Shown: one piece after another, positions 12,725 through 31,045 of the stretch
How positions within the stretch are numbered: the first letter of the stretch is position 1
How the letters are laid out: each line of letters starts with the position of its first letter
Assembly (NCBI GenBank): GCA_046116545.1
Contig: CP175956.1
Span: 961,734-1,025,733 of the forward strand
Length of the DNA stretch: 64,000 nucleotides
From: Candidatus Moraniibacteriota bacterium
GTDB taxonomy: Bacteria; Patescibacteriota; Minisyncoccia; Moranbacterales; GCA-2747515
Direction of reading: 5' to 3'
The notes under the pieces: model-generated
Databases searched by the model: none
Seen by the model: only the letters and a program-made list of their open reading frames with translations
What the model was told of the DNA's origin: nothing
Made by a program: the position numbers and the translations under genes

Positions 12725-13090
12725 TTATACATCACTTTCAACATCTATTTTATCTTCATAAAAAACATCTCGATATTCTTGCCTACCCTCATTAAACTTA
12801 CTCCCACGAGCATCAATTAAATCATTCGCATTGTCAAATTTTTTCTTTTCTAAAATAACTTCCTTTTTCTTAGCTTCTACATACTCTACAGTTTCAACTT
12901 GACTCACCTCATTTTCATATAAATATGAGTACCAAAAGTAAACCAGAGTACCTGCCACAAAAATCGCTAATACAGCCAATATATACTTAAATGACTTTAT
13001 CCACCATTTACGTGCTGATTTAATGATTTTACCAGCATTACTAACTGGATCATTAAATGTATCACGACCTTTTAATCCAAACATACACAA
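12725..13090 (-). CDS. Small membrane protein, last gene of the pil operon (PilP-like position)
   Basis: 121 aa, single TM helix (ILAVLAIFVAGTLVYFWYSYLY). Confidence 0.35.
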   Translation of the reverse strand: MCMFGLKGRDTFNDPVSNAGKIIKSARKWWIKSFKYILAVLAIFVAGTLVYFWYSYLYENEVSQVETVEYVEAKKKEVILEKKKFDNANDLIDARGSKFNEGRQEYRDVFYEDKIDVESDV

Positions 13091-13101
13091 TCCTTATATT
13101 A

Positions 13102-13740
13102 CTATTTATTATCTAGATAAAACACGGTAATCATAGTTGTTTTTAATAACTCATTTTTCATTTCCTCAACATCAGTAGTGCTCATATTAATATTTGATTC
13201 TGTTCTACTTGTTACAAGTGATAATACATCATTAAAATATTTCATATTTTCCAATTTTTGCAAAAACTCTATTAAATCATTTTGATTCCCTGTTAATGCA
13301 ATCTTTAATTTCATATTATTCTTTGTTAACGGTTCGATACTGACTTTTTCATCAGTTTCATCTTCTTTTACTTTTGCCTTTGTTTTCTTTACAACTACAG
13401 CACTATTCACAACCTCCAGAGATATCTTATTACCCGTATTATTAGCAATCTCTTCTAATTGTGAAAATAAATTAATTTTTTCATCATCATTATCTGGCAA
13501 TAACACATTTAACCCTTCTTTTTCTATAGATATGTATTCGGAAGTTTTTTCAAATTCATAAACATTCACTAAAAACTCTTCAGCTAACGCATGACCTAAT
13601 TGTAATTGCTCTAATTCTGCTGATTTATTTTTTATCAATCCAATAATATCAAAGGATTTATTGAACATAACAATAATCAATACTAAAAATATAAATATGG
13701 TTATTATTTGTTTATAATATTTTTTTATAAAATATGCCAT
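13102..13740 (-). CDS. pilO: Type IV pilus assembly protein PilO-like
   Basis: 212 aa bitopic protein (N-terminal TM IITIFIFLVLIIVMF). Its position after pilM-pilN supports the call. Confidence 0.5.
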   Translation of the reverse strand: MAYFIKKYYKQIITIFIFLVLIIVMFNKSFDIIGLIKNKSAELEQLQLGHALAEEFLVNVYEFEKTSEYISIEKEGLNVLLPDNDDEKINLFSQLEEIANNTGNKISLEVVNSAVVVKKTKAKVKEDETDEKVSIEPLTKNNMKLKIALTGNQNDLIEFLQKLENMKYFNDVLSLVTSRTESNINMSTTDVEEMKNELLKTTMITVFYLDNK

Positions 13741-13744
13741 AAAT

Positions 13745-14308
13745 TTACTTCAAACAATCTAAATTAATCTTAAACGTCATTGTAAAAAAAATATCAACAG
13801 GAGTTGCTAATTGCTCCTCTGGAACAACAACATTTGTAAAACACTTTTTTTCATCATATTCCATATCCTTAAGTGCATTCTTAAACTCCACCACACTCTC
13901 CCGTGTATTTGCTTGAGCCTTAATTGATACAGAATCATTTGTTGTTTTTATGCTCTCAATAACTATACTACTAGGAACAGTTTCACTTAAAAATATAATC
14001 ATCCTAGACCATTTTAAATGATTTTTATCTAACTTATTAATCAAATCAACCTTTTTATTCACTTCAATAAATTCATCATGCATTACTGCAACTTTTTTAT
14101 ATCTTTCATTTTCTGTAACACTAGACTTTACTTCTTCCATAACAGAAATTTCAGTCTTTAATATAAAATAAACAGCAAATAATCCACCTATCAAAAACAA
14201 AAACGCTATCATGACATGAATTTCCTGTTCCATTATTATTCTAAATGTTTTACGCCTATTCAAATGGTCTTTTTGTTTTTTTGGCAATAAATTGAATTTT
14301 ATTTTCAT
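13745..14308 (-). CDS. pilN: Type IV pilus assembly protein PilN-like
   Basis: 187 aa with a TM helix (IAFLFLIGGLFAVYFIL), directly downstream of pilM. Confidence 0.55.
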   Translation of the reverse strand: MKIKFNLLPKKQKDHLNRRKTFRIIMEQEIHVMIAFLFLIGGLFAVYFILKTEISVMEEVKSSVTENERYKKVAVMHDEFIEVNKKVDLINKLDKNHLKWSRMIIFLSETVPSSIVIESIKTTNDSVSIKAQANTRESVVEFKNALKDMEYDEKKCFTNVVVPEEQLATPVDIFFTMTFKINLDCLK

Positions 14309-14314
14309 ATAATT

Positions 14315-15376
14315 TTATATACTCTTTGAAGCTAAACCAATCACTGTTGCATATTGAACGGACGCTTCTCTATTTATTGGTGGCACACTTTTGAAATTCA
14401 CATTCACCCACGGATTTCCAAGCTCAATATTATAACCCAATCTACGAGATAAATAAGGTGCAATTCCCAATGTTCTAGCACCACCTCCACACATTATAAT
14501 TTTATCTATTTTATCAGTATAATTTAATCCATTCAAATAAAAATCAATAGATTTTTGTGCTTCACCAGCAAAGTTCTCCATAACAGCTTTAGTCGCTTGA
14601 AATACATGATCATTTTTCAATACTGACCCAACACCATATGTTATTTTAATATTTTCAGCCTCTGAATAAGTTATTCCAAATGTTTGCTCTATTGTTTTAG
14701 TCATGGCTTCGGAAGATAATGGAATACTTGATGTAAAAACAGGAATATTGTCAACAGTAACAACAAAACTAGTTCCCTTATCTCCTATATCTATAATCAT
14801 AGTGGTAGCACCTTTTTCATCATCTCTCAATAAACTATTGGATTGAGCTACTGATTCAATCTCAAATCCATACGCGGTTAACCCAGCTCTTCTGAGCATT
14901 TTTATATACCTATTTATAAAATCCTTAGACACAGCAACTATAATAACATCCATCTGTTTCTTATCTTTTGTAAGTCTCCTATCAAGTACTTGCCAATCAT
15001 AATAAACTTGATCAATAGAAAGAGGTATTGCAGCTTCTATCTCCCATTTAATAGCTTCAGCAACTTCCTCATCTTTCATATTTGGAATAGTTACTATTCG
15101 CAAAAATGATTTTGACTCTGGAAGTGAACAAATAACATTACGAGCTGATATTCCAGCTTTTTTTCTTGCTCTATCGATGGCACCTAGTACAACATCAAAA
15201 TTAGTAATATCCCCATTATTTACTATTCCTGCAGGTATTTTTTCAGATGCAAAGCCATACACATCATCATATTCTCCATGATGTGTAATCTGTAAAACCT
15301 TTATAGAAAGATCGCTAATATCCAAACCAAAAAATGGTGGCGTTGGATCAATGAATTTCTTATTAAATATGGACAT
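14315..15376 (-). CDS. pilM: Type IV pilus assembly protein PilM (actin-like ATPase fold)
   Basis: 353 aa with the actin/FtsA-like layout (FGLDISDLSIKVLQI ... IIDIGDKGTSFVV ... IIMCGGGA). Confidence 0.75.
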   Translation of the reverse strand: MSIFNKKFIDPTPPFFGLDISDLSIKVLQITHHGEYDDVYGFASEKIPAGIVNNGDITNFDVVLGAIDRARKKAGISARNVICSLPESKSFLRIVTIPNMKDEEVAEAIKWEIEAAIPLSIDQVYYDWQVLDRRLTKDKKQMDVIIVAVSKDFINRYIKMLRRAGLTAYGFEIESVAQSNSLLRDDEKGATTMIIDIGDKGTSFVVTVDNIPVFTSSIPLSSEAMTKTIEQTFGITYSEAENIKITYGVGSVLKNDHVFQATKAVMENFAGEAQKSIDFYLNGLNYTDKIDKIIMCGGGARTLGIAPYLSRRLGYNIELGNPWVNVNFKSVPPINREASVQYATVIGLASKSI

Positions 15377-15426: not shown

Positions 15427-16803
15427 CTATTCCATCTCTGTCCACTGATCAATAACATAAGAACTTCCAGTTGGAAAATATGGAGGAGCTGTTACTAAAA
15501 AATTTGGATCATATGTCAATGTACTTGTGCCAACACTCGACTGTTCTAATCCTTGTTTTGTCGCAATTGCACCGTAAAAATCCATGTCTATAATTGTATC
15601 GTATTCACTACTGCGACCAACAAAACCAAATTGAGACAAAATTGCCGCATCAATCTCCAAGACTCCACTATCATTCCCAGCACCATCTATAATTGGCTCT
15701 TTTACTGTATCGATATTATTTTCAGCAGCAAGACCTAATACAGTCCATGAATCATGATTTTCATATACAACATCACCATTTATATAAATATCTTGATTTC
15801 GCCCACCTCCATTATGATGTGCAGCAATTGTCAAACGTTTACCAGCATCTAATGTTCCATCAATCCACAAATCATTTCGTAAGTAAATTGCACTTGTGTC
15901 TTGTAATGTGATTGTTTGATCAAATGATTCTTTTGTGATTGCCTTTGTATCTTTATGATGTTTTTTCACCCACCAAACATCAGCAGTACCATCTGCTTGT
16001 AAAATAATATGCCATCCTTGTCCTCCTGCTAAAGTTGGTAGTGTATATTGCCCTTGTGCTGCCGATGCTATTTCTGCAAAACTCACCACAATACTATTAA
16101 AGTCTTGGACTGGTGATGGGAATATTTTTGCACCTGCAAAAAAACCATTACCAGTTTGACTCCAGATACCCTCTTTCTCTTCAGTGGCACTATTATTATC
16201 ATGGTCATATGTTGCAACACTACTAGATACTGCACCATAAGCGCTACCATTAAACTCAATCCCATCATTTGCATGTACTGCGCCATAAAATGTTGTTTTA
16301 TTGTTAATAATCAAACTGGAATCAGATAACAAAACAAATTCACTCCAAGCAGGTCGACGCATACGAACACGTACACTACGCGTTACGTCCGGTTCTTTAT
16401 ATGTCCAACCAGTAGCTAAAATTTCTGCATCAGTAGATCCTGAACTTGGCCTAATTACGCAAATACGATATCTTCCAATTGTATTAGTTCCATCATAATC
16501 AACTTCATAAGCTTCCGACTCACTACATTCACCATCATTATCAGAATCAACTCCATAAGGATTACCATTTTCCCAAAAATCTGCAACTTCTTCCGCTGTT
16601 TTACCATCTACATTATGTCCTAAATACCATCTATAAAAATATATACCAGATTCTGCCATGTGAAGAGCTTGTTGTCTTGGTTGTGCATGCAGACTATATT
16701 TAAAATGTTCTGTAACAAAACGTATTAATCCAGTAAAAATAACAGCCACTGAAACAATAACAATAAGACCATATACCAATGCTGTTCCTTTTTTTATTTG
16801 CAT
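15427..16803 (-). CDS. PilX-N-like pilus-associated protein, paralog 1
   Basis: N-terminus MQIKKGTALVYGLIVIVSVAVIF matches the PilX_N-type hydrophobic segment. Shares blocks with the 19030..20553 protein (GIYFYRWYL(A/G)HNV(E/D)GKTA). Confidence 0.5.
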   Translation of the reverse strand: MQIKKGTALVYGLIVIVSVAVIFTGLIRFVTEHFKYSLHAQPRQQALHMAESGIYFYRWYLGHNVDGKTAEEVADFWENGNPYGVDSDNDGECSESEAYEVDYDGTNTIGRYRICVIRPSSGSTDAEILATGWTYKEPDVTRSVRVRMRRPAWSEFVLLSDSSLIINNKTTFYGAVHANDGIEFNGSAYGAVSSSVATYDHDNNSATEEKEGIWSQTGNGFFAGAKIFPSPVQDFNSIVVSFAEIASAAQGQYTLPTLAGGQGWHIILQADGTADVWWVKKHHKDTKAITKESFDQTITLQDTSAIYLRNDLWIDGTLDAGKRLTIAAHHNGGGRNQDIYINGDVVYENHDSWTVLGLAAENNIDTVKEPIIDGAGNDSGVLEIDAAILSQFGFVGRSSEYDTIIDMDFYGAIATKQGLEQSSVGTSTLTYDPNFLVTAPPYFPTGSSYVIDQWTEME

Positions 16804-16828
16804 ATAATTTAAATTATTTTACGTAAAA

Positions 16829-17461
16829 TTAAGTCGGTGTTTTACCAAATAAAGACAAGTTACGCATAAGTACCTGTGATTGTATGCGCACATTATTTGG
16901 TTGACGAATTTGATCTACATTTACAAAAAGTAAAATTTTCACCAAAGATACACTCCCTGTATTTACAGGAGATGTAAGTTCTGTATTTGTTAAATCATAA
17001 TATGTAAATATGGGATCTTGTTCAGAATTATTCACAACATAGTTTGCAACACGAGTTATAATTTCATCATTAGCAACATCATAAATTGGCGGAGTCACTG
17101 TTGTGTCCAAGTTCGTAACTCCAACATTAAATGTATCATCAACATCATTTAAAAAATATCTAATACGCTCAATTTCATCATCACCATCATAATTTGCATA
17201 AAAAATAAATTCTGACACATCTGCAAATTCTACTGCATGTGCACCATCCCCACCAGAACTAGCACGACGAATATTTTTCACTGCATCATCTACACCGCGA
17301 GAAGCATGTAATGTTGCATAACCTAACTCAATAGCAAAATGATTCATCTCCCACACTTTTATAAAAAACATTGTAAATCCTAAAAGCACCATCGATGTAA
17401 TAGTAATCACCACAATAGTTTCAATAAGAGTAAATCCTTTTTTATTTTCTATATACATCAT
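16829..17461 (-). CDS. Type IV minor pilin / pseudopilin with prepilin leader
   Basis: Class III signal KKG|FTLIETIVVITI (cleavage after G, Glu at +5). 210 aa. Confidence 0.7.
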   Translation of the reverse strand: MMYIENKKGFTLIETIVVITITSMVLLGFTMFFIKVWEMNHFAIELGYATLHASRGVDDAVKNIRRASSGGDGAHAVEFADVSEFIFYANYDGDDEIERIRYFLNDVDDTFNVGVTNLDTTVTPPIYDVANDEIITRVANYVVNNSEQDPIFTYYDLTNTELTSPVNTGSVSLVKILLFVNVDQIRQPNNVRIQSQVLMRNLSLFGKTPT

Positions 17462-17479
17462 ATTAATTATGCATCAAAA

Positions 17480-18964
17480 TTAACTACTGGGATTCAATTC
17501 AATACTAACACTCTCCAAACCACTTATTGTAACTGAATCGTCATCATCTGTTATATAATCACTTGCTGTTACAGTAATATTGTATTGCTCTCCATCAATT
17601 AAAACATCATCAGCAACCCCATCACCATCTCCATCATTTTCTGCCACATCCACCGGAAAATACACTTTACCATGAACGTCAGTTTGTTGTGACACGTCAT
17701 ATCCAAGTGTTGTATTTTCCAGTTGCACTGTTACACCCTCAAATGGACCAGTTGTTAATGAATCAGTTATTGACACAATGACACCTGGCTCACTTTCATC
17801 AATAATAATCATGTCACTATTATATACACCACTTTCTACGGATATTGAGTTTTGTTCAGTATCTGAACCAGGATTAAATTTCCATAAAACATATCCTGAT
17901 TCATCTAATATGAAATCATATTTTCCAATACTTGACTCATATCCAGCAATATCAGCATCAAAATCAACTTCGCCTTCATTCCCTGATTCTGTACTAGAAA
18001 CTGCATTAAGAGCTGTATTAATATACACAGGATCATTGCTTACATACAAAAACCCCAACACTCTACCACCTGAGAAAGTAAAATCAATATCGGACACAAC
18101 ATTACCAAAAGGATCTTTTGTAAAAATATGAAGTTCTGGCAAAACATCCTCCACAATAGTAATTGTTGTAATTGTTCCTGCAATTATCGATGCATCTGTA
18201 TACATTGGATAATATGATGATACTGGATAAGGTGCCATTGTTTGTATTTCTTCACTTCCCGAAAGTAAAACAGTTATTTGATACATATCCATTCCAGGCA
18301 TCAATCCTTCAAATAAAACATTACCAGCAGAATCAGTTGTATTACTAAAATCTGGTGTCGGATTACCACTCCCAACAATATCAACACCTACAGTAGCACC
18401 ACTTACAGCAGCGCCTTCCGAGTCAACAACATTCACTGACAATATTCCATCTATTACGGCAGATTCATTTCCTGAAGGTGGTACAAAAAATGATGTTAAT
18501 TCGATGCTATTTACAGTATTAGAAACATCAACCATTCCTACTCCCCATAAAATCTTAATGTTTACACGCTTATAATCATTTGGGATGCTATCTCCGCCAC
18601 CAAAACCATCATCTGGATTATCAACATAATAAATCTCTGTTAAAACACGATACATACTGTTATTTATAGTTTTAACCTCATCATAATCTAACCCAGTACC
18701 TGAACCTGTAATCACACTCCCGTCTGGTGGATTTGTCGTTGAATCCAAAAAAATATTATCATATGGTGTATTACGCAAAATCTCCAGTTCTGCTGTAGCA
18801 AGTTCAACAGCTTCCGTACGCTGTTTTGTTTCAAGTGAATAACTTACGACAAGAGCGTATGTTTTGTAAAAGGTCATTACAGAGATACTAAAAATAAACA
18901 ATAACACTATACTTTCTATTAAAGTAAAGCCTTTTTTTTTATTGTAAAAATATGAAAAATTCAT
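17480..18964 (-). CDS. Large pilin-like protein with prepilin leader (494 aa)
   Basis: N-terminus KKKG|FTLIESIVLLFIFSISV. Thr/Ser/Gly/Asp-rich C-terminal region. Confidence 0.65.
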   Translation of the reverse strand: MNFSYFYNKKKGFTLIESIVLLFIFSISVMTFYKTYALVVSYSLETKQRTEAVELATAELEILRNTPYDNIFLDSTTNPPDGSVITGSGTGLDYDEVKTINNSMYRVLTEIYYVDNPDDGFGGGDSIPNDYKRVNIKILWGVGMVDVSNTVNSIELTSFFVPPSGNESAVIDGILSVNVVDSEGAAVSGATVGVDIVGSGNPTPDFSNTTDSAGNVLFEGLMPGMDMYQITVLLSGSEEIQTMAPYPVSSYYPMYTDASIIAGTITTITIVEDVLPELHIFTKDPFGNVVSDIDFTFSGGRVLGFLYVSNDPVYINTALNAVSSTESGNEGEVDFDADIAGYESSIGKYDFILDESGYVLWKFNPGSDTEQNSISVESGVYNSDMIIIDESEPGVIVSITDSLTTGPFEGVTVQLENTTLGYDVSQQTDVHGKVYFPVDVAENDGDGDGVADDVLIDGEQYNITVTASDYITDDDDSVTISGLESVSIELNPSS

Positions 18965-19029
18965 TTATTATATTTTAATTTTTGTATTATATTTCAATAA
19001 CCTACAAATTCATTATAGCATACGACACC

Positions 19030-20553
19030 TTAATCAGCTGAATTCCACATATCAATCGCATATGAATTACCTGTTGGGAAAAGTGGTGGTGGTTGATATA
19101 ATAGATTACCATCAAATATTAAATTACGTGTCTCAAATCCTGTTCCATCTGTATATCCAAATCCCATACGATTATTCGTTGCAATTGAACCATATAATTC
19201 TATGGTATCTTTGTAATTATTTGACCAATATTTTCTTCCTACTCTTCCATTTTGTGATAGAAGCGCAGCATCAATTGTTAAAGTTTCAGTATCTGAACCA
19301 CTTGAAGCATTTAAATCACCTTCAGAATTACGTATAAATTCAATATTTCCCTCTGCCGCAAGACCCAGTACAGAATCACTATTACGATCTTCATACACAA
19401 TATCATCTGCGCCTAAAAAAATTCTTGCTTCATGTCCATTGTCTGGACTATGCGCAGCAACTGTCAATTTTTTACCTGCTGGTAATACTCCTTCAATCCA
19501 TACATTGTCACGCACATATAAAATACCTACATCCGGAATATCAACAATATCAACATCAGAATTACGTAATCGTGTAATAGATAGTGTATTATTATTAAAT
19601 TTCCGAACTCTAGTAATACGCATTTGATTTGAAGTAGGGACACCAAGCTCTATAAATCTACCCCTTTCTTCAGGACCATAATACAATCCCATAGCTTGTG
19701 CTGCCTCACGCATTAAATCAAAATTAGCTGTCACACTATTAAAATCTTGGGCTACAACAGGAAATTCTTTTCCCGCAAGAAAATGTTCACTATCATCCAC
19801 ATCTTCACTATTATCAAAACCAGGAAAAGCTGCAGCCCAAACTCCAGACCGCCAACCTCGCACATCACTATCATTATCATAATATGATGAAACCGAACTT
19901 GTAACGATATTATGAGCTATTCCATCAAAATGAAATCCACCATTGATATGCATTGGACCATATACTTCAGTACCTGAACTCAATCTAATCCTATTATTTG
20001 CCAAAATTGCAAACTCACTCCACGATGGTTTACGCAACCTAGCACTAATTGTACGTTCTTGATTTATGCCTGATGAACTAGCACTACCTTGTGATTTTAC
20101 ATTTAGAACAGTCGAATATTCTGTTGGTGCTGTAACACAAAGTTTATATTGTCCAATTTTATTATGATTTTCATCTTCATAATCTACAATATAAGCCTCT
20201 GTACCATCTCCATCTCCATCAGCAGTATCTGCATCATCACAATCTCCATCTCCATTATCATCAACACCCAATGGATTATTTGTCCAAAATTCTTCAATCT
20301 GAGTAGCTGTCTTCCCTTCAACATTATGAGCTAAATACCATCTATAAAAATAAATACCAGCTTCTGAAACATGTATTGCTTGTGTATCTGGTTCAAGTGA
20401 AGTATTATATTTCACATGAGAAACAACAAATTGAATCGTACCCGCAAATAAAACACTAGCTGCTGCAACAACAGTTAAAACATAAACCAATGCCGTTCCT
20501 CGCATTATATATTTTCCTAAAAATTTTTCTTTATTAAATTTCATAATTTTCAC
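19030..20553 (-). CDS. PilX-N-like pilus-associated protein, paralog 2
   Basis: N-terminus MRGTALVYVLTVVAAASVLFAG. Paralog of 15427..16803. Asp/Gly-rich inserts (GDGDCDDADTADGDGDGTEAY). Confidence 0.5.
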   Translation of the reverse strand: MKIMKFNKEKFLGKYIMRGTALVYVLTVVAAASVLFAGTIQFVVSHVKYNTSLEPDTQAIHVSEAGIYFYRWYLAHNVEGKTATQIEEFWTNNPLGVDDNGDGDCDDADTADGDGDGTEAYIVDYEDENHNKIGQYKLCVTAPTEYSTVLNVKSQGSASSSGINQERTISARLRKPSWSEFAILANNRIRLSSGTEVYGPMHINGGFHFDGIAHNIVTSSVSSYYDNDSDVRGWRSGVWAAAFPGFDNSEDVDDSEHFLAGKEFPVVAQDFNSVTANFDLMREAAQAMGLYYGPEERGRFIELGVPTSNQMRITRVRKFNNNTLSITRLRNSDVDIVDIPDVGILYVRDNVWIEGVLPAGKKLTVAAHSPDNGHEARIFLGADDIVYEDRNSDSVLGLAAEGNIEFIRNSEGDLNASSGSDTETLTIDAALLSQNGRVGRKYWSNNYKDTIELYGSIATNNRMGFGYTDGTGFETRNLIFDGNLLYQPPPLFPTGNSYAIDMWNSAD

Positions 20554-20559
20554 TTATTT

Positions 20560-21216
20560 TTATGTTGGAATATCATCAAATTCTGTTAAGTTTCTAACAA
20601 CAACAAAAGATTCTATCCGCACATCATCTGGAGAACGAAATATTGGTTCTGGATTAACATATAATACTATTTTTACCATACGTACGTCTGCCGGTGTTGC
20701 CATCGTTTCCAAAGCCATTCCATTAATATCATCATATTCATAAATAGTACCATCAACATCATAATATTCAAAAATGACCTCTCCCGATGCAACATCATTT
20801 GTAATATTATTTGCCATATCTCGCACTTCTTCAGTACCACTATATTCTGGTGGCGTACTGGTATCAGGCTCAGTAATACCTCTTTTGAAGATGCTATCTT
20901 CAACAAAATATCTAACTCTCTCAACTATGCCATCATTATCATAGTCTGCATAAAAAATAAACTCATGATCATCAGCTAACTCTATTGGAAATGCACCATT
21001 TTGTGCTTGTTGTGCCTTGCGCATAGTATTTATAGCATCTTCAACAGCATTGCTTGCAACAAATGATGCCACCCCACTCTTAATTGCAAAGTGATTCATA
21101 GTCCACATCTTAACAAAAAAAAGTGATGCACCCAACATAACAATTGACGTAATTGCAATTGTTACAATCATCTCAACAAATGTCACACCTTTATAAGTTT
21201 TTTTAAAATTAATCAT
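20560..21216 (-). CDS. Type IV minor pilin / pseudopilin with prepilin leader, paralog of 16829..17461
   Basis: YKG|VTFVEMIVTIAITSIV leader. Shared block ER(I/V)RYF with the other 210-aa pilin. Confidence 0.7.
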   Translation of the reverse strand: MINFKKTYKGVTFVEMIVTIAITSIVMLGASLFFVKMWTMNHFAIKSGVASFVASNAVEDAINTMRKAQQAQNGAFPIELADDHEFIFYADYDNDGIVERVRYFVEDSIFKRGITEPDTSTPPEYSGTEEVRDMANNITNDVASGEVIFEYYDVDGTIYEYDDINGMALETMATPADVRMVKIVLYVNPEPIFRSPDDVRIESFVVVRNLTEFDDIPT

Positions 21217-22745
21217 GAACTAAGTATTAATGCAATCTCTTTTTCTGTTAATTCACTAATTTCTATAGAATCCGTTTCTTCATCATATTCTTCTGCATTA
21301 ACTACTATATTATAATCTTCTCCATCAACTAGTGTATCTGTTGTATTTTCTGGAAAATATACATATCCAAATTCATCTGTTATCAATGTAACTTCATAAA
21401 CAGGATCTAATGTCGTACTCTGTAATTTAACACTTGCACCCTCAATTGGTACAGATTCTGCATCAATAATTTCTATAATGCGAATAAATGCACTATCATA
21501 TTCATTATTAATAAAAATCATCTTTGATTGTGTATTTACACCAGAAGTGACTACTGTATTTTGTGGATTATCTTCATCATTTGGATTCATTTTCCAAAAA
21601 GTATAATTTGAAAAACTGCCTGGTAAAACAATATTATCAACTTTGTATATGCCTGAGTTAGCATAATTACCATTTAACACATCTGAAGTAGAATATACAT
21701 CTATATCAAATGTTGTTGTATCAGTGATTTCTCCTGTAGAATTCAAATTATACACATTTTCGATGTCATCATCTGCAGTTGTGCCCAAAACCGCACCACC
21801 TATAATATCAAACTGCACATCAGGAATGCCTACTTCAAAAGGATCCTGAGATTTAATATTTAATTGCGAAATTTTATTAGTATTAAAAGCTGTAGTTGTA
21901 ATACTACCTGCAGCAACACTTTGATGAATATATACTGGATTATATTCCCCTTCATTTAATGGCTCTATTAAATCATTTCCAGAAAATGCACTCAAAGTTT
22001 CTCGTGTTTCATAACCATTTTTTTCTATAGTAATCTCATAACAAGTATCACAAATTGGTGCACCCACATACATAAAATTACCATCAGAATCAGTAGTTCC
22101 CGTCAAAATTGATTCACTGCACGCAGGATGTCCAACAATATCACACATATTGTCACTAATGGAAACTATTACACCCTCAACAGACTCTACTGGTTCAACA
22201 CCAGTATCTAAAACATTTATAGATAATATACCTCCAGTTGGCATAGCCTCTAGACCACCTGGTGGTACAAATTGTGATACTAAATTTATTTGTTTTGATT
22301 GATACTTTACATCATTTAATGCATCAGCCTTAGAGACAGAATCACTAAGACCAGGACCCCAAATAATTGTTACACCTACTCTCTTATAATCCTCAAATCT
22401 AATATCAGATGGAGCAGAACCATCTGTTGGATCATCCACAAAAAATACAGATGTGATTATCCTATAATTCAAACCATTCACACTTGCAACCTCATCATCC
22501 TCTATGTCCCCTATAGGTGCATTTGCTTTTGTGGCAACATTTTCATAAGCTAAATTTCTAAAATGTTCCATTCTTTCATTTGCTAATGCAACAGCTCCTC
22601 GACGATATTTAGAATCTTGCATATGTCCCATAGTTTCTGTAAATACCTTATAAAAAGTAACAACTAAAATTGAAAAGACAGCAAGGGCAACTAGCCCTTC
22701 TATCAGTGTAAAACCCTTTTTATGTTGTATCTTTTTTATAACCAT
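21213..22745 (-). CDS. Large pilin-like protein with prepilin leader, paralog of 17480..18964
   Basis: Start moved to the internal Met (MVIKKIQHKKG|FTLIEGLVALAVF). The longer ORF would overlap the pilC 3' end. Confidence 0.65.
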   Translation of the reverse strand: MVIKKIQHKKGFTLIEGLVALAVFSILVVTFYKVFTETMGHMQDSKYRRGAVALANERMEHFRNLAYENVATKANAPIGDIEDDEVASVNGLNYRIITSVFFVDDPTDGSAPSDIRFEDYKRVGVTIIWGPGLSDSVSKADALNDVKYQSKQINLVSQFVPPGGLEAMPTGGILSINVLDTGVEPVESVEGVIVSISDNMCDIVGHPACSESILTGTTDSDGNFMYVGAPICDTCYEITIEKNGYETRETLSAFSGNDLIEPLNEGEYNPVYIHQSVAAGSITTTAFNTNKISQLNIKSQDPFEVGIPDVQFDIIGGAVLGTTADDDIENVYNLNSTGEITDTTTFDIDVYSTSDVLNGNYANSGIYKVDNIVLPGSFSNYTFWKMNPNDEDNPQNTVVTSGVNTQSKMIFINNEYDSAFIRIIEIIDAESVPIEGASVKLQSTTLDPVYEVTLITDEFGYVYFPENTTDTLVDGEDYNIVVNAEEYDEETDSIEISELTEKEIALILSS

Positions 22746-22746
22746 A

Positions 22747-23964
22747 CTAAATATTTTCAAGAACACTATACATAGGAGTAAGCATAGCAACTGCAAAAAA
22801 TCCAACAGCTCCACCAATAACAAGCATCAACACCGGCTCTATAATTGAAGAAAGATTTTTTGTAATTTGATTTACCTCTTCTTCATAAAATTCAGCAAGT
22901 TTGTTCATCATATCTTCTGTCTTACCCGTTTCTTCACCAACTTGAATCATCTGTGCAACTATAACTGGAAATATATTTGGATATTCTGCAATCACACTAG
23001 ACAACTCAACACCTCTTTGAATTTTACTACGCCCCTCCATTATGGCATCTTTAAAAAATGTATTTGAAAGTGTATTAGCAACAATTTCCAGTGAATCAAC
23101 AACAGATACTCCACTGTGCAACAATGAACTATAAATTCTAGCAAATCTAGCACAATTAACTTTTATTACAATATTTTTAATTGCTGGTGTTTTCAATAAA
23201 ATGAAGCTCATTGTCTTTTTACCTATTTGAGTAGATGTGAACATTTTCATTCCAATTCCACCACCAATTAATACAAATGCAATTAAAAAACCATGATTTT
23301 GCAAAGCATCACTCATACCTATTATAAATCTAGTAGCGGCAGGCAATTCAACTTCCATATCTCCAAATACTCCAAGAATTTGCGGTAAGATATACGTCAA
23401 CATAATAACAGCCACAATCATCATAGCAAATACAATTACCGCAGGATAAATCATGGCACCTTTAACTTTTGATTTTAATTCATGTTCCTTTTCCATCTGA
23501 ATAGTTACAATATCCAAAGATTGATCCAATGTTCCTCCGATTTCACCAACTCTTATCATGTTTACAAATAAGTCATTGAAAATAAGTGGATATTTTGCAA
23601 GAGATTCACTAAAAACGACTCCTTCTTGTACATCTTTATAGATATTTTCCAAAACTTCTTGAAAATGTTTATTTTTCGTCTGCACACTTAAATTCGATAA
23701 CGATCTTCCAATAGTTAATCCAGATGCAATCATAACACTTAAATTCCTAGTGAAAAATAATTTTTCTTTCAAGCTAACACCATTTAATCTATCCATCAAT
23801 TTAACATGTGGTTTACTGCCCTGCACTTCCATTCTTTCTATTGATGTAACAACAAAACCCTCACCACGCAATTGCATAGCAAGACCTCTTTCATTTGTTG
23901 CATCCATTTCTCCTGACTTAGGAGTACCGTCAACACTTTTTGATGTATATAAATATTTTGGCAT
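22747..23964 (-). CDS. pilC: Type IV pilus inner-membrane platform protein PilC (GspF family)
   Basis: 405 aa with the duplicated T2SSF-domain layout and 3 TM segments. Confidence 0.85.
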   Translation of the reverse strand: MPKYLYTSKSVDGTPKSGEMDATNERGLAMQLRGEGFVVTSIERMEVQGSKPHVKLMDRLNGVSLKEKLFFTRNLSVMIASGLTIGRSLSNLSVQTKNKHFQEVLENIYKDVQEGVVFSESLAKYPLIFNDLFVNMIRVGEIGGTLDQSLDIVTIQMEKEHELKSKVKGAMIYPAVIVFAMMIVAVIMLTYILPQILGVFGDMEVELPAATRFIIGMSDALQNHGFLIAFVLIGGGIGMKMFTSTQIGKKTMSFILLKTPAIKNIVIKVNCARFARIYSSLLHSGVSVVDSLEIVANTLSNTFFKDAIMEGRSKIQRGVELSSVIAEYPNIFPVIVAQMIQVGEETGKTEDMMNKLAEFYEEEVNQITKNLSSIIEPVLMLVIGGAVGFFAVAMLTPMYSVLENI

Positions 23965-23973
23965 TATTTTATT

Positions 23974-25749
23974 TTATTCTTTTGTTACTCTCATAACTTC
24001 TTCTATACTTGTTACACCTTGAATGATTTTATTAAATCCATCTTCAACCATTGTCACCATTCCATCTTCACGAGCTTTCCTTTCCATCGCATCCGATGTT
24101 GCATTTTGAGTTATCAACTTTTCTATTGCTTCAGTTATTTCAAATACTTCATAAATACCAGCTCGCCCTTTATATCCGCTTCCATTACATTGTGAGCAAC
24201 CATTTGGCTTAAATAATTCAATATCGGTCCAACTAACACCCGGCTTTAAAACTTTAACTCTCTGAAGTGTTTTTGTGATAGCTTCAATATCATAATTAAG
24301 TGATAATGTTTCAACCTCCTTTTCATCTAACTTATACGATTCTCGACATTCAACACATAATTTACGAACCAATCGTTGAGCTACAACTATATTTGTAGTA
24401 GATGCTATTAAAAATGGTTCCGCTCCCATATCCACCATACGAGGAATTGCTCCAGCAGCTGAATTTGTATGCAATGTTGAAAGCACTAAATGTCCAGTCA
24501 TGGCAGCATGAATTGCAATTTCAAGAGTCTCTTTATCACGAATCTCACCAACCATTATAATATCTGGATCTTGACGAAGAAGTGATCTAAGTCCAGCCGC
24601 AAATGTCATACCAATTTTTGACTGAACCTGTGTTTGATTTATACTATCCATTCTATATTCAACAGGATCTTCTACTGTGGAAATATTTACCTCTGGAGAA
24701 TTTAAAATATCTACAATTGTATACAACGTTGTTGTCTTACCAGAACCAGTAGGTCCCGTCACCAAAACCATCCCATTTGGCTTTCTTATCTCTCTTTGTA
24801 TTGCTTCCAATGATTCTCCCTGTAATCCCATTTTTTCCAATGTAAGTCCATGTGATGATTCATCTAACAGACGCATTACAATTTTTTCACCATCAAAAAC
24901 TGGTAATATGCTTACACGAAAAGAAAGTTTATATTCATCAGTTTCCATTTTAAATCGCCCATCCTGTGGTAATCTGTGTTCATCCAATTTCAATTTTGAT
25001 AATACTTTTATACGCGCAGTAACTCCGCTCATAGCATCTTTTGGCAATGTCATAGCCTGGCGCAAAATACCATCAATCCTATATCTAACAATTATTTTTT
25101 TCTCTTGTGGTTCAATGTGAATATCAGATGCTCCGTCTAAAATTGCATGTTTAATAAGTGTATCCACTATTCTAACTATTGGGAGATCTTCAGAAATTTT
25201 CACTAAATCTTCATTTTTTTCACTATTTTCAATATCATCAGCATCAGAATCCTTTATCATATCTCCAAATTCAGCTTCCAAGCTTTTCGTGTATTGTTTC
25301 AAAATAGTTTTAATACTGTCATCTGTTGTTACATATGGCATTATATCCAAACCTGTTTTTTTCTTAAGAAAGTCTATCATCTGCAAATCTTCTGGATCCA
25401 ACATAGCTACCTTCAAAGTTTCACCAGCTTTCTCAAAAGCAACTACTTGAGATTTTTTTGCCACTTGTTCAGGAATTATATTTAATACTTTTGCATCGAC
25501 TTCCTCCTTTGTTAAATCCACAAATGGAAATCCTAATATAGAAGCAAAGCTTTTTATACAATCCATCTCATTAATAATCTCTTTTTCCATTAATAACTCA
25601 CAAAGTTGCACATTTTCTCTTTGAGCACGCACAAAAACAGGAGCAATCTCTGCTTCTTTTACAATTTTATTTTCTATTAAATAGTCATACAGTTGATCAT
25701 TTTCTATTTTCATCCTATCTATTTTTATTTCAATTCTATTATACACCAA
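23974..25749 (-). CDS. pilB: Type IV pilus assembly ATPase PilB (GspE family)
   Basis: Walker A VTGPTGSGKTTTLYT, Asp box, Walker B MVGEIRD, His box, C-terminal CxxC...CxxC (CVEC...CSQC). Confidence 0.85.
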   Translation of the reverse strand: MVYNRIEIKIDRMKIENDQLYDYLIENKIVKEAEIAPVFVRAQRENVQLCELLMEKEIINEMDCIKSFASILGFPFVDLTKEEVDAKVLNIIPEQVAKKSQVVAFEKAGETLKVAMLDPEDLQMIDFLKKKTGLDIMPYVTTDDSIKTILKQYTKSLEAEFGDMIKDSDADDIENSEKNEDLVKISEDLPIVRIVDTLIKHAILDGASDIHIEPQEKKIIVRYRIDGILRQAMTLPKDAMSGVTARIKVLSKLKLDEHRLPQDGRFKMETDEYKLSFRVSILPVFDGEKIVMRLLDESSHGLTLEKMGLQGESLEAIQREIRKPNGMVLVTGPTGSGKTTTLYTIVDILNSPEVNISTVEDPVEYRMDSINQTQVQSKIGMTFAAGLRSLLRQDPDIIMVGEIRDKETLEIAIHAAMTGHLVLSTLHTNSAAGAIPRMVDMGAEPFLIASTTNIVVAQRLVRKLCVECRESYKLDEKEVETLSLNYDIEAITKTLQRVKVLKPGVSWTDIELFKPNGCSQCNGSGYKGRAGIYEVFEITEAIEKLITQNATSDAMERKAREDGMVTMVEDGFNKIIQGVTSIEEVMRVTKE

Positions 25750-29074: not shown

Positions 29075-31045
29075 CTACTGCCAATACCCACTAGCATCAG
29101 AAGTGGCTGTGTATGTCACAGATCCAGTATAAACTCCTGAAGGTTGTGATGGTGATACATCTACTTTGTAACATACATCAGTTGTTGATGAAGTTGAATT
29201 ATATGCTGTGTATGCTGCTATTGCTTGAGCTGTTTGTGGTACACCTGCATATTCTGCATCATCATTTGTTGTTCCTTCTTCACACAGATCTCCTGAGGTT
29301 GTCCATATGTTATTGAAGGTGTTATGAGTTGTATCATTTTGTGGAAATTGTATTACTGAGAAACCTAAACCTTTTGTTGTTGGAGCGTTCCAAGATTCTG
29401 TTACTTTTGTTGTTTGATCAAATTGTGTTAGGTCTGGTATTTCATCTGTATTATTTGAATGTACTAGGGTTGTATTTGAAGCTCCATTATCATTTATCAT
29501 TGATAGGTAGTAACCTTGGGTATCATTTGTTGTTACTATACAAGTTGATTGTCCTACTGCTGGAGTTCCTGCTATTACTATTCCTGGGTTTGCTACTGTT
29601 CCTAGTATTACATCATAATCTCCTGTTGATCCATCTTTATCATAACAATCCATTGATAGGGTTGCATTTACTTCTACATTTAGGTTTAGGTCATCTATTC
29701 CTGATATTGTTCCATCTCCGTTTACAATATAAGTTGTTGCATGGTTTGTTGTGAATGTACATATTCCGTTTGTTACTGTACATGTTGTATGGGTATTCCA
29801 TGTTACTTCTCCTTCTAGTTGTGAAAGGACTTCTAGTTCCATATCATTGTAAGCTTCGCTTACAGTTATTTCCATTGTTATATCATTTGAGAAGGTTAGG
29901 TTTTCATTTGGTATACCTAATCTTACTGCTCCTACTGCATTTGGATGATCTCCTCTTTCTTCATTTAATGTATTTTGGGTTATGAAGTTTTCAAAGTTGA
30001 AGTTTCCATTTAATGCTTCTGTTATCACTGTATTATTTGGGAATATTGCATTTGTTGTGTTTGATTGAAATGTTACTTGTGCACTTGCTGTTATCTGAGT
30101 TGTTGAGTCTATTGTTCCGTTATCTACTGAGATGTAGCTATCATTTACTGCATCGTTTAATTGTGAACTGTCTGGATTATTTATCACTATATCCATTGGG
30201 CCTGAGTAATAAATTACCAAACGACCTTCATTACCTGGAAGTCCCACACTTCCACCAACTCCAATACCAATTTGATAATCAGAATCACTAGTATTAGCAG
30301 GAGTTATTCCAGAGCCTCCCTCAATAACTATATCATCTGCAGCCGGATCCACATGACTTGAACCTCCACCGCCTGACCGAACATTACCATTATTATAAAG
30401 TCCTGCATAACCACCATACCAACCAGCTCCACCACCGCCACCGCCACCGTCACCGTCACCTCCAATAAATTGTCCAGCACCACTTGATTGAGTTCCTCCT
30501 GCTCCACCATCACATCCTGCACCTGCAGATCCAATTAATCCTCCACCTGCTCCACCTGCTCCAGAACATTTATTAAAACAAGTGCCATCCTCAGCCTTCG
30601 TACCTCCTGCTCCACCACCACCAGCTGTTATGATTTCTGTAGAATCAGAATTACGAATAATACCACTTCGCCCACCACCACCAGCACGTCCAGACCCGCC
30701 ACCACCAAAACCCCCAGCTCCACCATCATGACCACCACCAGCTACAATAACTGTAAATGCACTCCCTGGAATTACATTAAACGTTCCTGTAGCATAACCA
30801 GCACCACCTCCAGGATAACCTGTTCCACTAGGACAAGAACTAGAAGCCCATGGATCTTCACCTGCGCCACCTCCACCCCAAGCTTTAATTTGAATTGAAT
30901 CACATCCAGTTGGTACTGTAAAATTTTGATTAATTCCACTATATTCAAAAACTTGACTACCTGGTTGACAACCAGCATGGGCTGGGGACATAAAGAAAAA
31001 TACACCAATGCATAATACCCCAGTTCCATATAATATTTTACTCAT
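29075..31045 (-). CDS. Secreted protein with an ALK/LTK-like glycine-rich domain (Gly_rich family) and a large Thr/Asn-rich C-terminal region
   Basis: Signal peptide (MSKILYGTGVLCIGVFFFMSPAHA). Then FEYSGINQNFTVPTGCDSIQIKAWGGGGAG... and long poly-Gly blocks typical of the bacterial Gly_rich domain. Confidence 0.5.
   Translation of the reverse strand: MSKILYGTGVLCIGVFFFMSPAHAGCQPGSQVFEYSGINQNFTVPTGCDSIQIKAWGGGGAGEDPWASSSCPSGTGYPGGGAGYATGTFNVIPGSAFTVIVAGGGHDGGAGGFGGGGSGRAGGGGRSGIIRNSDSTEIITAGGGGAGGTKAEDGTCFNKCSGAGGAGGGLIGSAGAGCDGGAGGTQSSGAGQFIGGDGDGGGGGGGAGWYGGYAGLYNNGNVRSGGGGSSHVDPAADDIVIEGGSGITPANTSDSDYQIGIGVGGSVGLPGNEGRLVIYYSGPMDIVINNPDSSQLNDAVNDSYISVDNGTIDSTTQITASAQVTFQSNTTNAIFPNNTVITEALNGNFNFENFITQNTLNEERGDHPNAVGAVRLGIPNENLTFSNDITMEITVSEAYNDMELEVLSQLEGEVTWNTHTTCTVTNGICTFTTNHATTYIVNGDGTISGIDDLNLNVEVNATLSMDCYDKDGSTGDYDVILGTVANPGIVIAGTPAVGQSTCIVTTNDTQGYYLSMINDNGASNTTLVHSNNTDEIPDLTQFDQTTKVTESWNAPTTKGLGFSVIQFPQNDTTHNTFNNIWTTSGDLCEEGTTNDDAEYAGVPQTAQAIAAYTAYNSTSSTTDVCYKVDVSPSQPSGVYTGSVTYTATSDASGYWQ

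What the first reader, a model, noticed from the sequence alone, without database searches (positions are those of the whole stretch)
15427..22745. Tandem duplication of a three-gene minor-pilin module inside the type IV pilus operon
The order pilB-pilC-[large pilin 536 aa]-[pilin 218]-[PilX-like 507]-[large pilin 494]-[pilin 210]-[PilX-like 458]-pilM-N-O shows two paralogous cassettes. Each encodes a ~500-aa prepilin-leader protein, a ~210-aa prepilin-leader protein and a PilX_N-like protein. The paralogues have clearly diverged (shared blocks such as GIYFYRWYL.HNV.GKTA and ER(I/V)RYF, variable Asp/Gly/Thr-rich inserts). The window holds no ~150-aa major pilin, pilD or pilT. The duplicated tip or minor-pilin sets suggest two alternative pilus tip complexes, or adhesin diversification.
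Basis: partly seen in the sequence, partly recalled or inferred. Interest (0 to 1): 0.55.

Follow-up and report, generated by a model that had tools for sequence, protein, structure and literature searches.

The report
Duplicated pilus-tip gene set in Moranbacteria
An ultrasmall uncultured bacterium (Candidatus Moraniibacteriota) carries two diverged copies, side by side, of the three genes predicted to build the tip of its type IV pilus; related genomes keep both, only the first or only the second copy, which suggests two interchangeable tips on one pilus machine, a pattern already known in other bacteria.

Summary
On the minus strand the order is pilB, pilC, cassette A (22745-19030), cassette B (18964-15427), pilM, pilN, pilO. 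The three colinear pairs are clear paralogues: 35%, 43% and 38% identity, E 8e-68, 1e-54 and 5e-99.

Each cassette encodes three proteins:
- a modular PilV/GspI/ComGE-like prepilin with three Ig-like beta-sandwich domains;
- a ~210-aa prepilin;
- a pilin-like protein lacking Glu5, whose confident AlphaFold2 model (pLDDT 92) best matches ComZ, the Thermus tip pilin with an inserted beta-solenoid (Foldseek E 3.7e-11).

In 64 of 69 related loci that hold both pilC and pilM there is one cassette. Two occur only in this genome and three relatives. Cassette trees (bootstrap 200/200) show one ancestral duplication of the whole module, followed by whole-cassette losses: some relatives keep only A, others only B. 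All six genes are intact, with dN/dS 0.08-0.32.

Best reading (inferred): two alternative priming/tip complexes share one PilBC-MNO machine. Each is sufficient alone; they may be specialised for different targets. Myxococcus, cyanobacteria and Saccharibacteria give precedents, so this is a new member of a known kind and of moderate interest. No major pilin, pilD or pilT lies in the window.

The parts
23974..25749 (-). pilB, the pilus extension ATPase; first gene of the operon
   Evidence: NCBIfam type_IV_pilB E 1.8e-180. A 13-bp-stem terminator-like hairpin (25799-25769) lies just upstream, after groEL.
22747..23964 (-). pilC, the platform protein
   Evidence: NCBIfam PilC/GspF E 1e-94.
21213..22745 (-). 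Cassette A, gene 1: modular PilV/GspI/ComGE-like prepilin (510 aa from the ATG at 22745) with Ig-like C-terminal domains
   Evidence: Leader MVIKKIQHKKG|FTLIE. Pfam N_methyl 28.9 bits; CarboxypepD_reg. NCBIfam ComGE/PilV/GspI N-terminal matches. 35% identical to cassette B gene 1.
20560..21216 (-). Cassette A, gene 2: 218-aa prepilin in the PilW/GspJ slot (assigned by position and size only)
   Evidence: Leader MINFKKTYKG|VTFVE. N_methyl 27.2 bits. 43% identical to the 210-aa paralogue.
19030..20553 (-). Cassette A, gene 3: ComZ/GspK-like cap pilin (504-507 aa) without Glu5
   Evidence: G|TALVY N-terminus. 38% identical to the 458-aa paralogue. Weak NCBIfam GspK match. Same family as the modelled paralogue.
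18965..19029 (-). 65-nt gap between the cassettes, containing TGCTATAAT (looks like an extended -10 element)
   Evidence: TATAAT is also present at the same junction in L005 and L003 but not in L010. This is a possible internal promoter and is untested.
17480..18964 (-). Cassette B, gene 1: modular prepilin (494 aa), a pilin module plus three beta-sandwich domains
   Evidence: Leader MNFSYFYNKKKG|FTLIE. AlphaFold2 pLDDT 79. Foldseek matches the Ig-like domain chains of Gram-positive sortase pilins and adhesins (TIE, PitA, BcpA, SdrD), E 8e-16 to 4e-8.
16829..17461 (-). Cassette B, gene 2: 210-aa prepilin
   Evidence: Leader MMYIENKKG|FTLIE. N_methyl 29.8 bits. The family has a near-invariant D-x-D-x-x-x-E loop.
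15427..16803 (-). Cassette B, gene 3: ComZ/GspK-like cap pilin (458 aa) with an inserted beta-solenoid
   Evidence: AlphaFold2 pLDDT 92, pTM 0.82. Best Foldseek PDB match is ComZ 6qvi, E 3.7e-11, probability 1.0, followed by ice-binding-protein solenoids and tapirin.
13102..15376 (-). pilM, pilN and pilO, the alignment/platform subcomplex
   Evidence: Pfam PilM_2 E 1.6e-49 and a weak PilN match. The gene order is conserved in all related loci.
12725..13090 (-). Conserved small single-pass membrane protein downstream of pilO (121 aa); not a prepilin
   Evidence: A 111-150-aa gene sits at the same position in L001, L002, L003 and L005. It has no prepilin motif.

Best explanation
The region holds two paralogous copies of the core minor-pilin (priming/tip) module of a Gram-positive-style type IV pilus, in a Candidatus Moraniibacteriota (Patescibacteria/CPR) genome.

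Shown computationally. Each cassette encodes three proteins. (i) A PilV/GspI/ComGE-like prepilin whose pilin module is followed by three Ig-like beta-sandwich domains. (ii) A ~210-aa prepilin. (iii) A pilin-like protein without Glu5, with a ComZ-like architecture: N-terminal helix, small pilin sheet, a large beta-solenoid, then a final strand. The whole module was duplicated once in the ancestor of a Moranbacteria subclade. Both copies stay intact under purifying selection in at least four genomes. Other descendants lost cassette A or cassette B cleanly and as a whole.

Inferred. By analogy with GspI-J-K, ComZ-PilA2 and the PilVWX(Y1) priming complexes, the three proteins of one cassette would assemble through their N-terminal helices on the PilC/PilMNO platform. 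The Glu5-less solenoid protein would sit on top. The complex would nucleate polymerisation of a major pilin encoded elsewhere and end up at the pilus tip, with the solenoid and the Ig-like domains as the exposed binding surfaces. With two cassettes, one machine can make pili with either of two tips. Each tip is sufficient on its own. The pair is retained because the tips differ in target (host-cell surface, substrate or DNA) or in filament behaviour.
For: - Paralogy of all three pairs.
- Prepilin leaders in four proteins and no Glu5 in the two cap proteins. In the cap family, Gly at -1 and Tyr at +5 are nearly invariant.
- Cap protein model pLDDT 92, with ComZ as best PDB match. The ComZ paper describes a GspK-like pilin domain with the solenoid inserted before the last strand, a tip location, and binding to the adjacent GspI-like PilA2 (PMC6561018).
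- Big pilin: pilin module plus three Ig-like domains.
- One cassette in 64 of 69 loci that hold both pilC and pilM; two only in the window, L003, L005 and L010.
- Concatenated cassette tree: A clade, B clade (including the single-cassette loci L001 and L007) and monophyly of all 13 cassettes each get 200/200 bootstraps. The single-gene trees agree. The A and B subtrees mirror the pilC+pilM tree.
- The single-cassette loci have no remnant of a second cassette: 3.3-3.9 kb lie between pilC and pilM.
- dN/dS is 0.08-0.32 for all six genes against L005.
- Precedents for several minor-pilin sets on one machine: Myxococcus xanthus, where cluster_1 or cluster_3 alone suffices (PMC7541494); cyanobacteria, where two core sets with solenoid PilX prime two filament types (bioRxiv 10.64898/2026.02.12.705559); Saccharibacteria PilV/W/X sets whose PilX proteins were not predicted to have a PilD signal peptide (PMC11623550).
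Against: - There is no experimental evidence for any of these proteins.
- Complex formation and tip location are inferred from analogy and from co-inheritance of the genes.
- The ~210-aa pilin has no detectable family assignment beyond its N-terminal motif.
- No FimU/GspH-like fourth core minor pilin and no major pilin, pilD or pilT are in the window, so the filament itself is unseen.
- Divergence between A and B is spread fairly evenly over all domains, 31-54% identity, rather than concentrated in the distal domains. This gives no specific sign of changed binding specificity.
- All six proteins are acidic, pI 4.0-4.7, which does not favour generic DNA binding.
- dS is about 1, near saturation, so the dN/dS values are rough.
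- The trees are distance-based (neighbour joining).
Confidence: 0.65

Rival explanations
1. Division of labour of the Com/adhesion type. One cassette primes a short DNA-uptake (competence) pilus or pseudopilus, and the other primes an adhesive or motility pilus used for attachment to a host. This is a specific sub-case of the best explanation.
For: ComZ, the closest structural match, is a competence-associated DNA-binding tip pilin. In cyanobacteria, Com-type and EPS-type core sets with solenoid PilX prime two distinct filaments on one machine. The big pilins give weak NCBIfam ComGE matches.
Against: Both cap proteins and both big pilins are strongly acidic and have the same domain layout, so nothing marks one as a DNA binder. 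Relatives live with only A or only B, so neither function would be indispensable. In Saccharibacteria TM7x, mutants of the T4P-2 pilin genes kept wild-type competence.
Confidence: 0.2
2. A single composite tip. The six proteins co-assemble into one larger hetero-oligomeric priming complex, with the paralogues filling different positions, for example replacing the missing FimU/GspH-like and PilY1-like subunits.
For: Canonical T4aP priming complexes have four or five minor pilins plus PilY1, whereas one cassette here has only three. All six genes lie in one tightly packed operon, with gaps of 0-65 nt.
Against: 64 of 69 related loci work with three genes only. Close relatives of the two-cassette genomes have lost a whole cassette, either A or B, with no remnant. 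Both cap paralogues lack Glu5, as expected for two alternative top subunits rather than two stacked ones.
Confidence: 0.1
3. Plain redundancy or drift. The second cassette is a functionally equivalent spare, retained by chance or for dosage, and is on its way to being lost.
For: Repeated independent losses of one cassette (L050; L024/L053; L001/L007) show that a cassette is dispensable.
Against: Both cassettes are intact in four genomes that are themselves highly diverged; pilN and pilO are only 44-49% identical between the window and L005 or L003. dN/dS is well below 1. The paralogues have diverged to 35-43% identity, which is unlikely for equivalent spares in a streamlined ~1.3-Mb genome.
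Confidence: 0.1
4. The second cassette was acquired by horizontal transfer from a related Moranbacterium, rather than arising by duplication in place.
For: B-type cassettes group with the single cassettes of L001 and L007, and A-type cassettes with those of L050, L053 and L024. On its own this could also arise by recombination between lineages.
Against: All 13 cassettes form one clade within the family (200/200 bootstraps). Both the A and the B subtree reproduce the pilC/pilM tree of the host genomes, as expected for vertical descent of both copies after one old duplication. GC content shows no step across the region.
Confidence: 0.05

Closest known systems
ComZ-PilA2 competence pilus tip of Thermus thermophilus (PDB 6qvi; PMC6561018)
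   Same: The third protein of each cassette has the same predicted order of elements: hydrophobic N-terminal helix, small GspK-like pilin sheet, a large beta-solenoid, then a final strand. ComZ is the best PDB match (E 3.7e-11, probability 1.0). The gene lies next to genes for small pseudopilin-like partners.
   Different: No sequence-level similarity: a profile search of PDB sequences finds nothing. TM-score is only about 0.3 over the full length. DNA binding is untested and the proteins are acidic. The organism has no outer membrane. The partner pilin carries an extra chain of Ig-like domains.
GspI-GspJ-GspK pseudopilus tip of type II secretion
   Same: There are three adjacent genes: a PilV/GspI-like pilin (matched only in its N-terminal helix), a mid-sized pilin and a large cap subunit. 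The cap lacks Glu5, as GspK does; that GspK lacks Glu5 is stated from my own knowledge of the family and was not tested here. There are weak NCBIfam GspI/GspJ/GspK N-terminal matches.
   Different: The matches are far below family cut-offs. The cap's inserted domain is a beta-solenoid, not GspK's alpha-helical domain. No GspH-like gene is adjacent. The system is a PilB-PilC-PilMNO pilus locus, not a secretion system.
Multiple core minor-pilin sets serving one T4P machine: Myxococcus xanthus clusters 1-3 (PMC7541494) and the cyanobacterial Com and EPS sets (bioRxiv 10.64898/2026.02.12.705559)
   Same: Paralogous sets of core minor pilins are present in one genome. Each set is apparently able to prime pili alone. 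In cyanobacteria, PilX carries a ComZ-like solenoid proposed to replace PilY1, and some species keep one set while others keep both.
   Different: Here the sets have three genes, with no FimU/FimT and no PilY1. They lie in direct tandem inside the machinery operon between pilC and pilM. They arose by a lineage-specific duplication within Moranbacteria. Function is untested.
Saccharibacteria (TM7x) T4P-1 and T4P-2 PilV/PilW/PilX sets (PMC11623550)
   Same: The organism also belongs to Patescibacteria. There are two sets of elaborated minor pilins. The large PilX proteins were not predicted to have a PilD signal peptide and are proposed as tip adhesins for host binding.
   Different: TM7x has two separate systems, each with its own ATPase (pilB2 was deleted separately), and the PilX accessory domains are a jelly-roll and a beta-propeller. 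Here there is one machinery operon, and both caps are beta-solenoids.
Modular type IV pilins (Streptococcus sanguinis PilB with a vWA module; PMC8179133)
   Same: A pilin module is fused to bulky extra domains, suggesting a direct role in adhesion.
   Different: The grafted modules here are three CnaB/CarboxypepD_reg-like beta-sandwich domains. These are otherwise typical of sortase pilins and MSCRAMM adhesins.

Membership tests
Type IV prepilin (class III signal peptide, PF07963/TIGR02532) | Short basic leader ending in Gly, then a hydrophobic segment with Glu at +5 | tested here: met
   Four proteins have KKG|FTLIE or KG|VTFVE. Pfam N_methyl scores are 29.8, 27.2 and 28.9 bits (cut-off 21.2); big pilin B scores 20.3 bits, borderline.
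Type IV prepilin (class III signal peptide, PF07963/TIGR02532) | Cleavage and N-methylation by a PilD-type prepilin peptidase | not testable with these tools
   No peptidase A24 gene lies in the 64-kb window. The rest of the 1.29-Mb contig could not be read.
ComZ-like cap pilin (GspK-like pilin domain with inserted beta-solenoid) | N-terminal pilin helix, small pilin sheet, and a large beta-solenoid placed before the last strand | tested here: met
   AlphaFold2 pLDDT 92: helix 5-65, strands 99-149, beta-rich 156-430, last strand 450-457. Foldseek top match is ComZ 6qvi, E 3.7e-11, followed by ice-binding-protein solenoids. Contacts of the last strand with the pilin sheet could not be inspected.
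ComZ-like cap pilin (GspK-like pilin domain with inserted beta-solenoid) | Detectable sequence homology to ComZ | tested here: not met
   A profile of 120 family members finds no PDB sequence below E 0.2, and ComZ is not among the matches. The relationship is structural only.
ComZ-like cap pilin (GspK-like pilin domain with inserted beta-solenoid) | Binds DNA and a neighbouring GspI-like pilin; located at the tip | not testable with these tools
   Needs biochemistry, or at least multimer structure prediction, which the tools do not offer.
PilX_N (PF14341) | Match to the Pfam model at its threshold | tested here: not met
   Neither window copy matches at E <= 0.1. About a quarter of the 120 listed family members carry a precomputed PF14341 hit, so the family borders on PilX_N.
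GspI/PilV, GspJ/PilW and GspK minor (pseudo)pilin families | Match to the NCBIfam/TIGRFAM equivalog models above their cut-offs | tested here: not met
   Only N-terminal-helix matches far below the cut-offs: ComGE 30.7 of 49, PilV 26.3 of 52, GspI 20.6 of 44, GspK 15.9 of 130 bits. The head domain of the ~210-aa pilin matches nothing.
Tandem gene-module duplication | Colinear paralogous genes in the same order and orientation, adjacent to each other, and monophyletic relative to the single-copy homologues of relatives | tested here: met
   (paralogy). (pilC-to-pilM distance 7.37 kb against a median of 3.6 kb). (all 13 cassettes form one clade; A/B split 200/200).
Multiple alternative core minor-pilin sets on one T4P machine (Myxococcus / cyanobacteria type) | Each set alone supports pilus formation with the same machinery | tested here: inconclusive
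   The support is comparative only. Relatives with orthologous pilBC/MNO carry only A-type (L050, L053, L024) or only B-type (L001, L007) cassettes. No genetics are available.

The most novel reading that the evidence does not exclude
In these presumably host-dependent ultrasmall bacteria, the two cassettes would encode two host- or substrate-recognition heads for the same pilus. Cassette content (A, B or A+B) would then set attachment range. Two-cassette lineages would be generalists or able to switch, possibly through an internal promoter in front of cassette B. Single-cassette lineages would be specialists. If so, tip cassettes would be a genomic marker of CPR host specificity.
Probability: 0.2. 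Interest if true: 0.6.

Novelty: new member of a known kind. Interest (0 to 1): 0.35.

Why it matters
Type IV pili are thought to be the main device by which Patescibacteria find and hold their hosts and take up DNA. Almost nothing is known outside Saccharibacteria. This locus assigns a predicted fold and a role to three "hypothetical" protein families that are conserved between pilC and pilM across Moranbacteria. The cap family alone has 344 clusters at E <= 1e-30. The roles are a ComZ-like solenoid cap, a modular pilin with Ig-like domains, and a partner pilin.

The locus also offers a natural experiment. One old duplication was followed by reciprocal losses of whole cassettes. This argues that the three genes work as a unit and that either unit is enough for the machine. 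That makes the idea of alternative tips testable by multimer modelling, metatranscriptomics or heterologous reconstitution. It does not reveal a new principle, because several minor-pilin sets per machine are already documented in Myxococcus and cyanobacteria.

Tried and rejected
- Sequence profiles of the cap family and of the ~210-aa pilin family against PDB sequences found nothing useful.
- A Pfam scan of 21 members of the ~210-aa pilin family returned only N_methyl.
- A Pfam scan of the whole 120-member cap alignment exceeded the size limit.
- Two protein alignments built from merged tblastn coordinates failed on frame errors and were redone from clean ORFs.
- One script failed because L010 has a truncated pilC; it was rerun without L010, plus a pilM-only tree that includes it.
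- The sigma-70 and terminator scan gave no more promoter-like sites than shuffled sequence, 72 against 78. It is not used as evidence, apart from the hairpin after groEL.
- DNA binding as the special role of one paralogue: no charge difference supports it.
- Divergence concentrated in the distal domains: not seen.
- Horizontal transfer of one cassette: not favoured by the trees.
- The major pilin, pilD and pilT could not be located.

Full report
**1. What is there**

The window is low-GC (about 33%) with nearly all genes on the minus strand. An exact-match protein lookup identifies it as a Candidatus Moraniibacteriota (Patescibacteria/CPR) metagenome-assembled genome on a 1.286-Mb contig. The two PilX-like genes are NCBI ACKUBY_04960 and ACKUBY_04975, both annotated as hypothetical.

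The minus-strand order is as follows:
- groEL, then a terminator-like hairpin;
- pilB 23974-25749 and pilC 22747-23964;
- cassette A: big pilin 21213-22745, 218-aa pilin 20560-21216, cap protein 19030-20553;
- a 65-nt gap;
- cassette B: big pilin 17480-18964, 210-aa pilin 16829-17461, cap protein 15427-16803;
- pilM, pilN, pilO;
- a small membrane protein, then a tRNA.

PilB, PilC and PilM are identified with strong scores; PilN is only a weak Pfam match (19.6 bits against a cut-off of 22.8), and PilO is named by its conserved position.

**2. Check of the observation**

The three pairs are full-length, colinear paralogues:
- cap proteins, 38% identity, E 5e-99;
- ~210-aa pilins, 43%, E 1e-54;
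- big pilins, 35%, E 8e-68.

tblastn against the window finds each protein's paralogue and nothing else. Two ~105-nt DNA blocks of 72-75% identity remain at about 3.7 kb spacing.

Four proteins have canonical prepilin leaders: KKG|FTLIE in three and KG|VTFVE in one. The two cap proteins have G|TALVY without Glu5. The 536-aa ORF is best read as 510 aa from the ATG at 22745.

No other prepilin-like N-terminus, no PilT-like ATPase and no prepilin peptidase is in the window.

**3. What the proteins are**

*Cap protein.* A 120-sequence alignment gave an AlphaFold2 model with pLDDT 92 and pTM 0.82. It has a 60-residue N-terminal helix, a four-stranded sheet, a long beta-rich region (156-430) and a final strand.
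- Foldseek against the PDB puts ComZ of Thermus thermophilus first (6qvi, E 3.7e-11, probability 1.0). Next come ice-binding-protein beta-solenoids and the tapirin C-terminal domain.
- ComZ is described as a GspK-like pilin domain with a beta-solenoid inserted between the penultimate and last strands. It is too bulky for the fibre body and is therefore placed at the tip. It binds the adjacent GspI-like PilA2 and DNA (PMC6561018).
- There is no sequence-level link to any PDB entry.
- The window copies miss Pfam PilX_N, although about a quarter of the family members listed carry it.
- In the family, Gly at -1 and Tyr at +5 are nearly invariant. The absence of Glu5 is the hallmark of the top subunit GspK (established knowledge of pseudopilus tips).

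*Big pilin.* The model has pLDDT 79. It shows a pilin module (helix 15-65 plus a small sheet) followed by three beta-sandwich domains.
- Foldseek matches the Ig-like domain chains of sortase pilins and MSCRAMM adhesins: TIE, PitA, BcpA and SdrD.
- Pfam gives a weak CarboxypepD_reg match.
- NCBIfam gives sub-threshold ComGE, PilV and GspI matches along the helix.

*The ~210-aa pilin.* Its head domain matches nothing. I place it in the PilW/GspJ slot by position and size only.

**4. Comparative genomics**

The cap family has 344 clusters at E <= 1e-30 in the representative library. All named hits are Moranbacteria or Patescibacteria.

In 64 of 69 related loci that hold both pilC and pilM, 3.3-3.9 kb separate the two genes, which fits one cassette. 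The distance is 7.36-7.60 kb in L003, L005 (identical to L011, and near-identical to L006) and L010, and 7.37 kb in the window.

Trees were built for each of the three proteins and for the concatenated cassette. They place all 13 cassettes of nine genomes in one clade of the family. That clade splits into two:
- an A clade: window A, L005 A, L003 A, L010 A, plus the single cassettes of L050, L053 and L024;
- a B clade: window B, L005 B, L003 B, L010 B, plus the single cassettes of L001 and L007.

Each of these groupings has 200/200 bootstrap support. Both subtrees follow the pilC+pilM tree.

The simplest history is one duplication of the whole module before these nine genomes diverged. Cassette A was then lost in the L001/L007 lineage. 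Cassette B was lost in L050 and in L024/L053, without remnants.

All six genes are intact in every two-cassette genome. dN/dS against L005 is 0.08-0.32, with dS about 1, so these values are rough. Cassette B evolves faster than A: big pilin B is 59% identical between the window and L005, against 79% for big pilin A.

**5. Mechanism**

What is shown is the architecture, the paralogy, the history and the selective constraint. What is inferred is the following.
- The three proteins of a cassette form a GspIJK-like or ComZ-PilA2-like complex on the PilC/PilMNO platform.
- This complex primes polymerisation of a major pilin encoded elsewhere and caps the pilus tip.
- The two cassettes provide alternative tips for one machine.

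The reciprocal-loss pattern is the main new argument. Either cassette is enough for the same machinery, and the genes are kept or lost as a unit.

The specialisation remains open. Divergence is evenly spread over the domains, and all six proteins are acidic.

A perfect TATAAT (TGCTATAAT) lies in the gap between the cassettes. It recurs at the same junction in L005 and L003 but not in L010. This hints at separate transcription of cassette B and pilMNO, but it is untested.

**6. Comparison with known systems**

- Several core minor-pilin sets serving one machine are documented in Myxococcus xanthus. It has three clusters, and cluster_1 or cluster_3 alone is sufficient (PMC7541494).
- The same holds for cyanobacteria. 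Two sets, each with a solenoid-bearing PilX likened to ComZ, prime two distinct filaments. Some species keep one set and others keep both (bioRxiv 10.64898/2026.02.12.705559).
- Saccharibacteria TM7x has two pili, each with its own PilV/W/X set. Its large PilX proteins were not predicted to have a PilD signal peptide and are proposed as adhesins (PMC11623550).
- The present case differs in four ways. The sets have three genes, with no FimU/GspH-like pilin and no PilY1. They lie in direct tandem inside the machinery operon. The PilV-like pilin carries three Ig-like domains. The organism is a Moranbacterium.
- A full-text search for 'Moranbacteria' and 'pili' returned four papers; none has either term in its title or abstract, and they were not read.

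**7. Verdict**

It is a new member of a known kind, with a tidy evolutionary story and useful fold assignments for unannotated CPR proteins, but it is not a new principle. Interest 0.35.

Noticed in passing
window 17480-18964 (-): The NCBI gene model for big pilin B (465 aa, 'carboxypeptidase-like regulatory domain-containing protein') starts 29 codons downstream of the ATG at 18964. It therefore omits the prepilin leader MNFSYFYNKKKG|FTLIE and hides the protein's pilin nature.
   Followed up: partly
window 18965-19029 (-); L005 7340-7394; L003 about 7770: A perfect -10-like TATAAT (window TGCTATAAT, L005 TGTTATAAT, L003 ATGTATAAT) sits between cassette A and cassette B in three of the four two-cassette genomes. 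It is absent in L010. It may be an internal promoter for cassette B plus pilMNO.
   Followed up: partly
window 16829-17461 and 20560-21216 (-): The ~210-aa pilin family has a near-invariant acidic loop, Y-x-D-x-D-x-D-x-x-x-E-R-V-H-Y-F (D92, D94 and E98 in the window protein). It resembles DxDxDG-type calcium-binding loops. Asp/Gly-rich inserts (DSDNDGE, DGDGDG, ENDGDGDGVADD) also occur in the cap proteins and in big pilin B.
   Followed up: no
window 54339-63719 (-): A giant 3126-aa protein has C1q, F5/8 type C (discoidin), Kelch, SPRY and DUF7483 domains. It is probably a large surface or adhesion protein.
   Followed up: no
window 29075-31045 (-): A 656-aa protein has an N-terminal signal-like segment and long Gly-rich stretches (GGGAGG-type). 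It matches no Pfam family.
   Followed up: no
L075 and L076 (MAG SZUA-486, contigs QKEW01000002 and QKEW01000006): One MAG holds two contigs that each carry a complete pilB-pilC-cassette-pilM locus, with cap proteins 97% identical. This is either a strain mixture in the bin or a very recent duplication of the whole locus.
   Followed up: partly
L039, L041, L042, L044, L045, L082: In these Moranbacteria loci the three-gene cassette and pilM are present, but tblastn found no pilC within the roughly 10 kb upstream. The machinery genes may be arranged differently in some lineages.
   Followed up: no
window 3744-4601 (-): A protein combines an ATP-cone domain with an Mrr_cat restriction-endonuclease domain, next to tRNA-His and tRNA-Thr.
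   Followed up: no
window 12725-13090 (-), and the same position in L001, L002, L003 and L005: A small (111-150 aa) single-pass membrane protein is conserved directly downstream of pilO in Moranbacteria loci. It is not a prepilin and has no family assignment. It may be an extra machinery component.
   Followed up: no
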